A stretch of DNA of 64,000 nucleotides from a virus. Shown here one piece after another: positions 29,376 through 30,058 of the stretch. Numbering within the stretch: position 1 is the stretch's first letter; each line of letters opens with the position of its first letter. A program made the position numbers and the translations under genes. The stretch lies in IMG/VR virus record IMGVR_UViG_3300045988_079560; one strand, 5' to 3'. The notes under the pieces are model-generated. The model was given only the letters and a program-made list of their open reading frames with translations. It did not search any database and was not told the DNA's origin.

Positions 29376-30058
29376 TTTCAACCGAGAATAACGCTGACTG
29401 TTTACAGTTGGTTTAGTGTTCCGGCTGAAAAGTATTGGCGAAAGCCGTGGTAAGCAATCATTAAATAGGGAGATTGCAATGCTCACTGAGAGGCTTATGT
29501 GAGTAGTCCGGGAAAGCCGACAGGACTTAAACTTGGAGAGCTTGCGTAAGTCACGCTAAAGACCATCGTTGCAACGATGCCTACGATAGCATAACTGGAA
29601 ATGCCACGGACACCATGCCGGGGAAAGTGGGATTCAACTCCCCACCGTAGGACGAGCGGATTTCTTTACCAATTTCTTATTCCGGCTCACACAGGAAAGA
29701 AATGGCGCGGCGAGGTGGCGAGAACGTAAGTGCTTTTTACATTACCAAGAGTTTTTAAGAAAACTCCGGTGCGGAAAATTTACTGCTTAGAGTGCATGAG
29801 CGTTACAGCGATTTAAGCGGCGCAGAGGATTTAGTAGAGGCTGAGAACTGCGATAACAACGTACATCAGAGGTAAGGCGATAAAGAGCTGGACTCGTCAG
29901 AGGTTCTTTGAGTATGTAGTCGGTGGATTATGAGAACCATGTGGAGGGGTGTAAGGTCCGAGAACCACATTAAAAAATGAAATACCTTTGTTGGCAACTG
30001 TCTTACACGTTGCATCGGTTCGGTAGTGGCAACCATCCAAGCTGCCGCCGGACTGCAT
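29376..30058 (+). ncRNA. candidate large structured non-coding RNA (context fits ROOL/GOLLD-type phage RNAs)
   Basis: 683 nt between two tRNAs with no credible ORF. Many clean hairpins, e.g. 29564-29579, 29660-29703, 29749-29766, 29902-29938, 29939-29970, 29994-30013. Confidence 0.35.

What the first reader, a model, noticed from the sequence alone, without database searches (positions are those of the whole stretch)
29376..30058. 683-nt ORF-free, hairpin-dense stretch between two tRNAs: candidate large structured RNA
No credible ORF lies between tRNA-Glu and tRNA-Arg. The segment is on the transcribed strand of the array. It contains many clean local helices: catcgtt/aacgatg 29564-29579; atttcttt/aaagaaat 29660-29703; gagtttt-taag-aaaactc 29749-29766; ggttct/agaacc 29902-29938; atgtgg/ccacat 29939-29970; gcaac/gttgc 29994-30013; and a ggc-gaaa-gcc GNRA hairpin at 29437-29446. 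It also has a T-loop-like gggattcaactccc and one copy of the gttacagcgat box. Large ornate RNAs of unknown function (GOLLD, ROOL) are known to sit beside tRNA genes in Firmicutes prophages, which matches this context. Shorter unexplained spacers in the same island (27550-27711, 29166-29303, 30209-30323, 30494-30810, 31174-31415) are similarly hairpin-rich. More than half of the 5.4-kb island is not accounted for by tRNAs or ORFs.
Basis: partly seen in the sequence, partly recalled or inferred. Interest (0 to 1): 0.7.

Follow-up and report, generated by a model that had tools for sequence, protein, structure and literature searches.

The report
Modular structured RNAs in phage tRNA array
The 683-base gap between two phage tRNA genes is neither junk nor one giant known RNA: it is a chain of small RNA folds that evolution has kept intact, built around a degenerate tRNA look-alike, and it lies 2.5 kb upstream of a phage gene for a Ro60-like RNA-binding protein.

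Summary
The stretch is real. It is ORF-free, lies on the + strand of a phage tRNA operon, and its listed hairpins exist. Folding energy alone is unremarkable: z = -2.3 to -2.5, against -0.2 to -2.2 for coding controls. The evidence for function is evolutionary. In relatives whose terminase is only ~50% identical at four-fold synonymous sites, the RNA blocks are 82-95% identical. Stems in three tested blocks keep pairing through compensatory changes (0 of 500 shuffles; 94-99% paired against 30-45% when partners are slid).

It is not GOLLD, ROOL, HEARO, OLE, tmRNA, RNase P RNA or any other Rfam 15 family. It is also not one obligate unit. It breaks into modules: M1a, M1b, M2 leader, a tRNA-like element, M3, M4 and M5. 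These assort independently. M4 alone, and M2+M4, occur in other phages' tRNA arrays, and relatives carry 74- and 77-nt cassettes or swapped blocks. The "T-loop" belongs to a tRNA-like element at 29580-29653 with conserved arms and a hypervariable 7-8-nt anticodon loop.

The island ends at a DUF2828/vWA gene (32581-34032) whose model matches only Ro60/TROVE structures. Best reading: tRNA-operon-embedded stable RNAs, possibly Y-RNA-like partners of that protein. The partnership is unproven.

The parts
29393..29412 (+). M1a hairpin: GCTGACTG-TTTA-CAGTTGGT
   Evidence: Present in all relatives. An A-U to U-A swap (CTGTCTG/CAGATGG) is seen in L203/L204, and the loop changes in L065. The scan also flags it as a weak terminator-like site.
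29431..29504 (+). M1b domain. Outer helix 29431-37/29477-83 encloses a GNRA hairpin (29437-46, GGC-GAAA-GCC) and hairpin 29454-59/29472-77. A third hairpin follows at 29481-85/29500-04.
   Evidence: My own helix scan finds compensatory changes in the outer helix (2 pairs) and in the inner hairpins. By eye, it shows the same motif ('TGGCG-loop-GCCGTGG + hairpin + CTGAG') as the 77-nt cassette that relatives carry after 29938 and as copies in L061/L204. This family grouping was not tested formally. The module is absent in L065 and L061, so it is dispensable. The M4 model gives a weak 15.6-bit hit here.
29505..29579 (+). M2 leader, three hairpins: La 29505-09/29523-27; Lb 29541-46/29554-61; Lc 29564-69/29574-79 with a UGCA loop. 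Lc ends exactly at the 5' end of the tRNA-like element.
   Evidence: 93-95% identical in L061/L065, against ~50% at neutral sites. Lc keeps 100% pairing through CG/UA/UG changes, even in L066/L203/L204, where the rest of the leader is unrelated.
29580..29653 (+). tRNA-like element: 6-bp acceptor stem, D arm GCAT/ATGC, anticodon stem with a universal A.G mismatch, T arm. The window copy alone has G53 changed to A.
   Evidence: ARAGORN calls the homologous site in relatives as tRNA-??? (acca/ag), Val(aac), or Leu(tag/gag/cag) without a long variable arm. It is not called in the window, and Rfam tRNA scores below E = 10. The T stem covaries (GC/UA). The acceptor and D stems are invariant. The anticodon loop is 7-8 nt, has at least 9 versions, and carries C where U33 should be.
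29654..29822 (+). M3, the most variable block. It holds local hairpins at about 29673-83/29694-702, 29732-37/29747-52 and 29749-55/29760-66, and a 9-bp helix 29783-91/29812-20 whose loop holds GTTACAGCGAT.
   Evidence: Segments are replaced wholesale in L002/L067 and L005/L036. L067/L047/L204 carry an extra 89-nt tRNA-like gene after 29658. A 74-nt cassette sits after 29822 in about half of the relatives. Covarying pairs are listed.
29823..29938 (+). M4 module, three hairpins with large conserved loops: S1 29841-44/29866-69 (loop GAACUGCGAUAACAACGUACA); S2 29876-80/29894-98; S3 29902-08/29932-38 (loop with AGUCGGUGGAUUAUG).
   Evidence: Covariance model R1 and alignment A4 (39 distinct copies): 93.9% of cells paired against 35-45% when slid; 9 of 16 pairs change on both sides; 0 of 500 shuffles reach this. 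M4 occurs alone or with M2 only in other phages (L171, L194; 30 metagenome loci). It is always in a tRNA array on the same strand, with the nearest tRNA at a median of 14-116 nt.
29939..30057 (+). M5. An H-type pseudoknot: P1 29940-44/29965-69, and P2 29953-57 with 29984-88; the conserved loop holds GGUCCGAGAA. Then hairpin 29994-98/30009-13. Then a terminal hairpin 30021-27/30041-47 (plus 30016-20/30051-55) with loop AACCAUC, ending 2-3 nt before tRNA-Arg.
   Evidence: Alignment A2 (41 distinct sequences): 98.7% paired against 30-37% for slides of -3 to +2 (59.5% at +3). P1 has 3 pairs with compensatory change. One pseudoknot pair takes AU/GC/UA. The terminal hairpin keeps pairing in 5 sequence versions. 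The best Rfam match is a sub-threshold SAM-II-like pseudoknot at 17 bits against a cut-off of 44.
27168..27196 (+). Context: sigma-70-like promoter (TTGACA-17-TATACT, 11 of 12) upstream of the first tRNA of the island.
   Evidence: No convincing + strand terminator lies between it and 32580. The island is therefore inferred to be one operon.
32581..34032 (+). Context: Ro60-like (TROVE-like + vWA) protein gene at the 3' end of the island, 2.5 kb downstream of the stretch on the same strand.
   Evidence: Pfam DUF2828 + DUF7788 + VWA_2. PHROG 850 'RNA-binding protein', E = 2.7e-134. AlphaFold2 model: pLDDT 84, pTM 0.81. The ten best Foldseek PDB hits are all Ro60/TROVE (9kop, 9l5y, 2i91, 1yvr, 1yvp, 9nfa, 9nf8), full length, E = 1e-6 to 1e-4.

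Best explanation
The stretch is a mosaic of at least six independently folding RNA modules that selection maintains, arranged around a degenerate tRNA-like element and embedded in a phage tRNA operon.

Shown. The modules are conserved far above the neutral rate. Their stems covary on the + strand. They assort independently among phages. M4 behaves like a cassette that occupies a 'tRNA slot' in arrays.

Inferred. The island is transcribed as one precursor from the promoter-like site at 27168-27196. The tRNA-processing enzymes (RNase P at tRNA-Arg; RNase Z or exonucleases after tRNA-Glu) release the stretch as a stable RNA of about 680 nt. If the tRNA-like element is itself recognised, as mascRNA-type 'punctuation', two RNAs result, of about 203 and 404 nt. 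Each product would end in a hairpin that abuts the cleavage site (Lc at 29579; the terminal hairpin at 30055), which would shield the new 3' end from exonucleases. The conserved large loops, the pseudoknot and the tRNA-shaped domain would then serve as binding surfaces.

More speculative (about 0.3). The partner may be the Ro60-like protein encoded at the end of the same island. The RNAs would then act like Y RNAs (YrlA / phage Yrl), tethering or gating that protein and host RNA-decay or RNA-repair enzymes during infection.
For: - Conservation: terminase four-fold synonymous identity is 49-51% against L065, L066 and L061, while the M2 leader is 93-95%, M4 85-94%, the tRNA-like element 82-89% and M5 83-93% identical.
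- Covariation with controls: M4, M5 including the pseudoknot, M2 leader plus tRNA-like element.
- Strand: G-U pairs such as UG:23/CG:16 in S3, and MFE z = -2.3 on + against -0.1 on -.
- Modularity: cassettes and swaps; M2+M4 without M1, M3 or M5 in L194-type phages; M4 alone in L171-type phages.
- Array context: 83 of 84 M4 loci have a same-strand tRNA, with 4-7 tRNAs within 1.5 kb.
- tRNA-like element.
- Promoter present and no internal terminator.
- Hairpins abutting tRNA 5' ends: read directly from the sequence.
- Ro60-like fold of the adjacent gene.
- Homologues of that gene in other prophages are preceded by tRNAs or tRNA-like RNAs. One carries a sub-threshold YrlA hit (35.6 bits, E = 4e-4). 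RtcB genes lie nearby in two loci.
- Precedent: phage Ro60 with Y-RNA-like genes upstream (PMC12135203), and YrlA within 4 kb on the same strand as Ro60 (PMC4201824).
Against: - There are no transcript data, so ends, processing and stability are all inferred.
- Most aligned sequences come from one phage lineage, so covariation counts are not independent events. Alignment A4 was fitted to the model.
- A hairpin directly at position -1 (Lc) could hinder RNase P rather than help it, so the tRNA-like element may stay embedded.
- The window's own tRNA-like copy carries a G53-to-A change that breaks the G53-C61 pair.
- Against the Ro60 link: M2+M4 and M4-only phages have no Ro60-like gene in the fetched loci (11 loci with at least 4.5 kb of room). 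The Rfam YrlA model does not hit the stretch. GGUCCGA is not enriched in the window overall, and one of its island copies (30732) sits in a T-arm-like hairpin, so the motif may partly reflect decayed T arms (GGTTCGA to GGTCCGA). Better tRNA-like Y-RNA candidates lie closer to the gene (31500-32575).
Confidence: 0.6

Rival explanations
1. It is one large ornate RNA of a new class, functionally like GOLLD or ROOL, with a conserved 3' core (M4-M5), a variable 5' region and an embedded tRNA. It may self-assemble.
For: The context matches that of GOLLD and ROOL: phage or prophage, tRNA island. GOLLD has a conserved 3' region and a variable 5' region, and sometimes carries tRNAs in its linker (PMC12286853). 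The order M1-M5 is syntenic across the main lineage and in L204. The stretch has many conserved loops, a GNRA loop and a pseudoknot.
Against: There is no Rfam hit, even a partial one. M4 and M2+M4 exist on their own in other phages. Cassettes sit between M3/M4 and M4/M5 in close relatives. No long-range helix stands out from noise. The folding z-score is ordinary.
Confidence: 0.15
2. It consists of decaying tRNA genes and neutral spacer left by homing-endonuclease-driven shuffling of the array, with no function of its own.
For: - The tRNA-like element is degenerate, and the window copy has a G53-to-A change.
- T-arm remnants occur in the spacers of relatives (L061; window 30728-30750).
- An HNH endonuclease ORF replaces tRNA-Arg/Asn in L061.
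- The architecture is mosaic.
- The folding energy is unremarkable.
Against: Identity is 82-95% where neutral sites are ~50%. Compensatory changes occur in many stems, with 0 of 500 shuffles reaching them. Variation in the tRNA-like element is concentrated in the anticodon loop rather than spread evenly. M4 is kept in three phage lineages.
Confidence: 0.07
3. The modules are cis-acting processing or stability elements of the tRNA operon. They would be entry sites or roadblocks for RNase E, III, P or Z that tune the yield of neighbouring tRNAs, and would not be trans-acting RNAs.
For: Hairpins abut tRNA 5' ends. M4 lies 14-15 nt from a tRNA in two lineages. The island appears to be a single operon.
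Against: The loops are large and invariant over 13-23 nt, and the pseudoknot is conserved. This exceeds what a roadblock needs. The same module sits next to different tRNAs (Ser, Ile, Arg).
Confidence: 0.12
4. It is anti-defence decoy RNA. The tRNA-like element, with its fast-changing anticodon loop, and perhaps other modules would soak up host anticodon nucleases or other RNA-targeting defences.
For: The anticodon loop is hypervariable on an otherwise constrained tRNA body. This fits an arms race. Phage tRNA arrays are generally linked to countering tRNA-targeting defences (my own knowledge, not tested here).
Against: The loops are 7-8 nt, have C instead of U33 and do not mimic any one host anticodon. 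No defence or anti-defence gene was identified next to the stretch. The idea was not tested.
Confidence: 0.06

Closest known systems
GOLLD and ROOL RNAs (Rfam RF01998, RF03087): large ornate phage/prophage RNAs next to tRNA islands
   Same: Phage or prophage of Firmicutes. Embedded in or next to tRNA arrays and probably co-transcribed with them. Several hundred nucleotides long, with many conserved helices, loops and a pseudoknot. Like GOLLD, it has a better-conserved 3' part, a variable 5' part and a tRNA(-like) gene inside (PMC12286853, PMC5737381).
   Different: Neither covariance model detects any similarity. The parts occur separately in other phages. There is no evidence for a single global fold or for multimerisation. 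The known distribution is much narrower: one GTDB genome and about 100 IMG/VR contigs.
Bacterial and phage Y RNAs (YrlA/YrlB; Yrl1/Yrl2 of Thermus phage phiLo), which partner Ro60/Rsr
   Same: Non-coding RNAs with a tRNA-shaped domain, encoded upstream of and on the same strand as a Ro60-type gene, within the ~4 kb typical for YrlA (PMC4201824, PMC12135203). GGCGAAAG (29437-44) fits the GNCGAAN0-1G motif. GGUCCGAG (29955-62) equals, from my own memory, the vertebrate Ro-binding sequence.
   Different: The tRNA-like element is a normal, unpermuted cloverleaf. No 5'-3' terminal stem with an internal loop was found. The Rfam YrlA model does not hit the stretch. Both motifs could be chance or T-arm decay. 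The protein is a DUF2828-type structural homologue, not a Pfam TROVE member. M2 and M4 also occur without a nearby Ro60-like gene.
Small stable RNAs of the phage T4 tRNA gene cluster (species 1 and 2 / RNA C and D); from my own knowledge, not confirmed in the held library
   Same: Non-tRNA stable RNAs encoded inside a phage tRNA cluster, co-transcribed with the tRNAs and matured by the same processing enzymes. Function unknown.
   Different: No sequence relation was tested or is expected. The T4 RNAs are two single RNAs of about 120-140 nt, not a chain of shuffled modules.
mascRNA / MALAT1-type tRNA-like processing signal (Rfam RF01684)
   Same: A tRNA-shaped element with an unconstrained anticodon loop, embedded in a longer non-coding transcript. 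There, RNase P cleavage at its 5' end creates the protected 3' end of the upstream RNA. A weak Rfam match (14.3 bits) falls on the element in L014.
   Different: The precedent is eukaryotic. The match is far below threshold (42.5 bits). Processing here is untested, and the hairpin at position -1 may interfere with bacterial RNase P.

Membership tests
GOLLD (RF01998) / ROOL (RF03087) / HEARO / OLE / tmRNA / RNase P RNA | A match to the family covariance model (sequence plus structure) | tested here: not met
   cmscan found nothing at gathering score on the whole window. It also found nothing at E <= 10 on 6 kb, on 696 nt, or on the 856-nt long variant in L014. ARAGORN finds no tmRNA.
GOLLD / ROOL | Location in a phage or prophage beside a tRNA island | tested here: met
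   Terminase, portal and tRNA island are in the window. The same array sits in a Diplocloster hominis genome contig.
GOLLD / ROOL | One large conserved multi-junction fold that is inherited as a unit | tested here: not met
   Modules occur separately and cassettes interrupt them. No long-range helix has support.
Y RNA (YrlA-like) | Encoded near a Ro60 orthologue (within about 4 kb) and on the same strand | tested here: met
   The stretch ends 2.5 kb upstream of 32581-34032 on the + strand. That protein has the Ro60 fold by Foldseek, but it has no Pfam TROVE hit.
Y RNA (YrlA-like) | A tRNA-like domain (T and D arms) | tested here: met
   29580-29653 has a canonical T arm and a D arm with GG. 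The T stem covaries. However, it is an ordinary cloverleaf, not the permuted T-AS-D arrangement seen in L212.
Y RNA (YrlA-like) | A GNCGAAN0-1G or GGUCCGA Ro-binding motif near the 5' end, in a stem formed by the 5' and 3' ends | tested here: inconclusive
   GGCGAAAG lies at 29437-44 and GGUCCGA at 29955-61. Both are conserved. Neither lies in a terminal 5'-3' stem. GGTCCGA occurs 4 times in the window against 4.4 expected and may derive from T arms.
Y RNA (YrlA-like) | A match to Rfam YrlA (RF02553) | tested here: not met
   There is no hit in 29370-30065 at E <= 10. The 31-bit hit at 30090-30191 spans the adjacent tRNA-Arg and tRNA-Asn genes.
Y RNA (YrlA-like) | Physical binding to the Ro60 protein | not testable with these tools
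   Needs EMSA or RIP-seq.
tRNA (RF00005), for 29580-29653 | Cloverleaf with a 7-nt anticodon loop, U33 and the G53-C61 pair; detection by tRNA finders | tested here: not met
   ARAGORN does not call it in the window, and Rfam tRNA scores below E = 10. The loop is 7-8 nt with C at position 33. The anticodon stem has an A.G mismatch in all 25 sequences. The window copy has G53 changed to A.
Self-cleaving ribozymes linked to phage tRNAs (HDV-like / theta, hammerhead, twister, pistol, hatchet) | A match to the Rfam ribozyme models, or a theta descriptor adjacent (within 5 nt) to a tRNA | tested here: not met
   No ribozyme family hits the stretch. The method does detect a type II hammerhead elsewhere (L212). 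The RNArobo theta descriptor of PMC10879173 was not run.

The most novel reading that the evidence does not exclude
The DUF2828/vWA proteins are a very large family (6,626 cluster representatives at 50% identity) seen here mostly in human-gut prophages and phage contigs. They may be a previously unrecognised branch of Ro60. Their RNA partners may be not single Y RNAs but whole tRNA-island-encoded sets of modular RNAs. These would include the tRNA-like element with its variable loop, M4, and the M5 pseudoknot with GGUCCGA. The tRNA-processing machinery would release them, and they would act to redirect host RNA decay or repair during infection.
Probability: 0.2. Interest if true: 0.85.

Novelty: new variant of a known kind. 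Interest (0 to 1): 0.6.

Why it matters
Phage tRNA islands are usually annotated as tRNAs plus 'spacer'. Here the spacer is under stronger constraint than synonymous sites of an essential gene, and it is built from shuffled RNA cassettes that no Rfam family covers. This adds a third pattern beside GOLLD and ROOL for what phages carry in tRNA operons.

It also gives concrete small targets for structure and function work: M4 at 116 nt, the M5 pseudoknot at about 50 nt, and the Lc hairpin plus tRNA-like unit.

If the link to the neighbouring Ro60-like protein holds, an abundant gut-phage protein family of unknown function (DUF2828) would acquire both a fold assignment and candidate RNA partners. 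The Ro60/Y-RNA system could then be studied in gut phages.

Tried and rejected
- Rfam was run at four scopes. Only noise came back (sR49, SAM-II at 17 bits, L19 leader, mascRNA and Tymo tRNA-like at 14 bits).
- blastn against 50,697 GenBank phages found no match.
- A naive all-against-all covariation scan was swamped by lineage-linked substitutions. A stacked-helix filter recovered mainly local helices, and the long-range candidates were G-U-rich and unconvincing.
- I considered resemblances to RNase P RNA, hammerhead (CUGANGA), k-turn or C/D box, HDV-like ribozymes, twister, and CRISPR-repeat mimicry (four GAGAAC copies). I judged these by eye only. None fits, and Rfam gives no support.
- MFE z-scores did not discriminate the stretch from coding controls.
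- The first AlphaFold model, from a shallow alignment, was too poor to use (pLDDT 57), and its Foldseek hits were generic helical repeats. Profile searches of the DUF2828 family against PDB sequences and Pfam found only the vWA part, not TROVE. The Ro60 link therefore rests on fold comparison alone.
- The M4 model was run on a Blautia prophage that carries a 58%-identical Ro60-like gene. It found no M4 there. The short shared strings I had noticed by eye did not pass blastn-short.
- GGTCCGA enrichment: three of four copies lie in the island, but one of them (30732) sits in a T-arm-like hairpin, so decayed T arms are a possible source.
- A literature search for DUF2828 found nothing relevant. 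A search for the T4 stable RNAs in the held library found no usable passage.
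Full report
**Observation**

ARAGORN and Rfam place tRNA-Glu at 29303-29376 and tRNA-Arg at 30058-30134. Both belong to a + strand tRNA island (27303-32100) in a phage-like window that also holds a terminase (25231-26883) and an SPP1-type portal (40280-41896). 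The 683 nt between the two tRNAs hold only short ORFs (65 aa or less), and relatives do not keep them.

Thermodynamics alone does not set the stretch apart. The MFE z-score is -2.26 or -2.45 on the + strand and about -0.1 to -0.8 on the - strand. Three coding controls of the same length give -0.2, -1.7 and -2.2. The 'gttacagcgat box' is unique in the window. A related box, YTACAGCAAYC, recurs elsewhere in the island.

**Known families**

Rfam 15 gives no hit in the stretch. This holds at gathering score, at E <= 10 on 6 kb, at E <= 10 on 696 nt, and on an 856-nt long variant from a relative. GOLLD, ROOL, HEARO, OLE, tmRNA, RNase P RNA, YrlA and the self-cleaving ribozymes are therefore not detected. 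No GenBank phage matches by blastn.

**Relatives**

The terminase recovered 80 IMG/VR loci, and about 60 of them carry the stretch at 88-96% identity. DNA patterns added further contigs and one GTDB genome, Diplocloster hominis CSJ-3, which holds the same array. The element is therefore a Lachnospiraceae prophage or phage feature. A metagenome scan gave 84 more true M4-bearing loci.

**Conservation**

Against L065, L066 and L061, the terminase is only 49-51% identical at four-fold synonymous sites. The RNA blocks are 82-95% identical to L065 and 89-94% identical to L061.

**Anatomy and covariation**

The alignment resolves seven modules.

- **M1a** is a hairpin at 29393-412.
- **M1b** (29431-504) is a small domain with a GNRA hairpin.
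- **The M2 leader** (29505-579) has three hairpins. The last one, Lc, carries a UGCA loop and ends exactly at the 5' end of the tRNA-like element.
- **The tRNA-like element** spans 29580-653.
- **M3** (29654-822) is variable.
- **M4** (29823-938) has three hairpins with invariant loops of 13-23 nt.
- **M5** (29939-30057) has an H-type pseudoknot, a hairpin, and a terminal hairpin that ends 2-3 nt before tRNA-Arg.

Pair counts with controls are as follows.

- M4: 93.9% of cells paired against 35-45% when partners are slid; 9 of 16 pairs change on both sides; 0 of 500 shuffles reach this (the alignment was fitted to model R1).
- M5: 98.7% against 30-37% for slides of -3 to +2 (59.5% at +3). Compensatory changes occur in P1, in the pseudoknot (AU/GC/UA) and in the terminal hairpin, which keeps pairing in five sequence versions.
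- M2 leader plus tRNA-like element: 95.4% against 32-41%, with 10 pairs changing on both sides.

Lc keeps its pairing even in L066, L203 and L204, where the rest of the leader is unrelated. G-U pairs that would be A-C on the other strand show that the + strand is the RNA strand.

One caveat applies to all these counts. Many sequences share recent ancestry, so cells are not independent events.

**The tRNA-like element**

In relatives, ARAGORN calls this site as 'tRNA-???' (anticodon acca or ag), as Val(aac), or as Leu(tag/gag/cag) lacking the long arm of real tRNA-Leu. The acceptor and D stems are invariant. The T stem covaries. The anticodon stem has an A.G mismatch in every sequence.

The anticodon loop is 7-8 nt, has C where U33 should be, and exists in at least nine versions. 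Change is concentrated in the loop, so this is a tRNA-shaped RNA that no longer decodes, not a uniformly decaying pseudogene. The window's copy alone carries a G53-to-A change, which explains why it is not called.

**Modularity**

Close relatives differ in several ways:

- a 74-nt cassette after 29822;
- a 77-nt cassette after 29938, which by eye shares M1b's motif (not tested formally);
- an extra 89-nt tRNA-like gene after 29658;
- block swaps in M3;
- replacement of the flanking tRNAs, once by an HNH endonuclease ORF in L061.

Other phages carry M2 plus the tRNA-like element plus M4 without M1, M3 or M5 (L194 type), or M4 alone (L171 type). Of the 84 metagenome loci with M4, about 54 also carry M5 (49 of them with M2 as well), 20 have M2+M4 only, and 10 have M4 alone.

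In every class M4 lies in a same-strand tRNA array. The nearest tRNA is at a median of 14-116 nt, and 4-7 tRNAs lie within 1.5 kb. A scan for stacked, covarying long-range helices found nothing convincing. The stretch is therefore a chain of autonomous cassettes, not one obligate large fold.

**Context and the Ro60 lead**

A strong sigma-70-like promoter (27168-27196) precedes the island, and no + strand terminator interrupts it. The island ends at ORF 32581-34032, which matches DUF2828 + DUF7788 + vWA and PHROG 850 'RNA-binding protein'.

With a 63-sequence alignment, AlphaFold2 gives pLDDT 84 and pTM 0.81. The ten best Foldseek PDB hits are all Ro60/TROVE proteins, aligned over the full length. 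They include the Ro60 of Thermus phage phiLo (E = 1e-6 to 1e-4, TM 0.46-0.59). The next hits are isolated vWA domains. Sequence profiles do not reach TROVE.

The family is very large: 6,626 representatives at 50% identity. In six other prophage or phage loci, homologues at 50-58% identity are each preceded by a 0.4-1.9 kb gene-free stretch. In four of the six loci that stretch holds detectable tRNAs or tRNA-like RNAs:

- eight tRNAs in L214;
- tRNA-Tyr plus a sub-threshold YrlA hit in L212 (35.6 bits, E = 4e-4);
- a 112-nt tRNA-like hit in L213;
- tRNA-Asn plus T-arm fragments in L208.

RtcB genes lie nearby in two of these loci.

Published work shows that bacterial and phage Ro60 proteins bind Y RNAs that mimic tRNAs and are encoded within about 4 kb on the same strand (PMC4201824). 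[quoted passage not shown] The target lies 2.5 kb upstream on the same strand, contains a tRNA-shaped domain, and carries GGCGAAAG (the GNCGAAN0-1G pattern) and GGUCCGAG.

The link is weak in several respects:

- YrlA does not match the stretch.
- GGTCCGA is not enriched in the window (4 observed against 4.4 expected). Three of the four copies lie in the island, but one (30732) sits in a T-arm-like hairpin, so T-arm decay is a possible source.
- M2+M4 and M4-only phages show no Ro60-like gene in the fetched loci.
- Odd tRNA-like RNAs much closer to the gene (31500-32575) are at least as good candidates.

**Mechanism**

Shown: constrained, + strand, modular RNA structures in a tRNA operon. Inferred: co-transcription with the tRNAs and release by RNase P and RNase Z at the flanking tRNAs, and possibly at the tRNA-like element. 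The products would have 3' ends closed by hairpins that abut the cut sites (Lc at 29579; the terminal hairpin at 30055). The conserved loops, the pseudoknot and the tRNA mimic would act as binding surfaces.

I put about 0.6 on this general picture. I put about 0.3 on the specific partner being the Ro60-like protein. I put 0.15 on a single GOLLD-like large RNA, and less than 0.1 on non-functional tRNA debris.

**Novelty**

None of the modules is in Rfam 15. Structured non-tRNA RNAs carried in phage tRNA clusters are already known as a class: GOLLD, ROOL, Y-RNA-like RNAs and, from my own knowledge, the T4 stable RNAs. What differs here is the cassette-like, independently assorting architecture and the possible tie to a DUF2828-type Ro60 homologue. 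I rate it a new variant of a known kind, with interest 0.6.

Noticed in passing
window 32581-34032 (+): This DUF2828 + DUF7788/vWA protein (PHROG 850 'RNA-binding protein') has a confident model whose ten best PDB matches are all Ro60/TROVE. No Pfam TROVE hit is found. The family has 6,626 representatives at 50% identity.
   Followed up: yes
L208 9300-10000; L212 6400-7000; L213 6382-7000; L214 5094-7000; L211 6584-7000; L210 1445-1981: Homologues of the Ro60-like gene in other prophages are each preceded by a 0.4-1.9 kb gene-free stretch. It holds tRNAs or tRNA-like RNAs in four of the six loci. L212 has a sub-threshold YrlA hit at 6779-6849 with the permuted T arm, AS stem, D arm order. RtcB genes lie nearby in L213 (9449-10672) and L214 (3621-4286).
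   Followed up: partly
window 31521-31641, 31697-31814, 31820-31946, 31950-32045, 32396-32456, 32474-32575 (+): A run of odd tRNA-like genes lies directly upstream of the Ro60-like gene. Three score 40-44 bits with Rfam tRNA only because they carry 45-55-nt insertions, and ARAGORN misses them. Two mini versions keep only an acceptor-like stem plus a T arm or an Asn-type anticodon arm.
   Followed up: partly
window 27396, 31755, 32006, 32059, 32404, 32491 (+); L208 about 9783, 9893, 16070; L212 about 6897: The box YTACAGCAAYC (core ACAGCAAU) recurs in the island, usually just 3' of a stem inside the odd tRNA-like elements. The same core recurs upstream of the Ro60-like gene in unrelated Blautia-type prophages. 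Its function is unknown.
   Followed up: partly
window 32414-32439; L208 9464-9489: The sequence TTTTGGATATGAC-NNN-TAATCATAAA, an anticodon-arm-like hairpin, is conserved upstream of the Ro60-like gene in both phages. Only the three 'anticodon' bases differ.
   Followed up: no
window 29955, 30732, 31748 (+): Three of the four GGTCCGA copies in the 64-kb window lie on the + strand of the 5.3-kb RNA island. The copy at 30732 sits in a T-arm-like hairpin (GTAAGG-TCCGATT-CCTTAC), so the motif may come from T-arm decay rather than Ro binding.
   Followed up: partly
L061 14380-14820: An HNH endonuclease ORF occupies the place of tRNA-Arg/tRNA-Asn directly after the stretch. A homing endonuclease of this kind is a likely driver of the mosaic array.
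   Followed up: no
window 27712-28689 and 28646-28957 (+): An SPFH/Band-7 protein gene and an HU-type DNA-binding protein gene sit inside the tRNA island between tRNA-Met and tRNA-Tyr. Some relatives lack this insert; for example, in L026 tRNA-Met (ending 12321) and tRNA-Tyr (starting 12996) are much closer together.
   Followed up: no
window 36420-38150 (+): A 576-aa protein has a weak protein-kinase hit and a weak TCAD9 (ternary-complex-associated domain) hit. It lies 2.4 kb downstream of the Ro60-like gene.
   Followed up: no
window 46538-46605 (+): Rfam int-alpA RNA hit at 43.8 bits, above the gathering score of 35.8.
   Followed up: no
L205 4360-4436 (-): A truncated copy of the tRNA-like element (5' acceptor strand, D arm, anticodon arm and T arm, but no 3' acceptor strand) lies directly after a methyltransferase-like ORF in an unrelated viral contig.
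   Followed up: no
L204 about 940-985 (-); L208 16014-16053: A module, TGTGCAGATACC...AATGGCAAACAGAAACTA, is shared between the leader of the tRNA-like element in L204/L206 and the tRNA array of the Blautia prophage. RNA cassettes therefore appear to be exchanged between different phages' arrays.
   Followed up: no
L212 1598-1665 (-); L208 19566-19640 (+): A type II hammerhead ribozyme (48 bits) and a RAGATH-18 RNA just after a TnpB gene (62 bits) occur in prophages that carry the Ro60-like gene.
   Followed up: no
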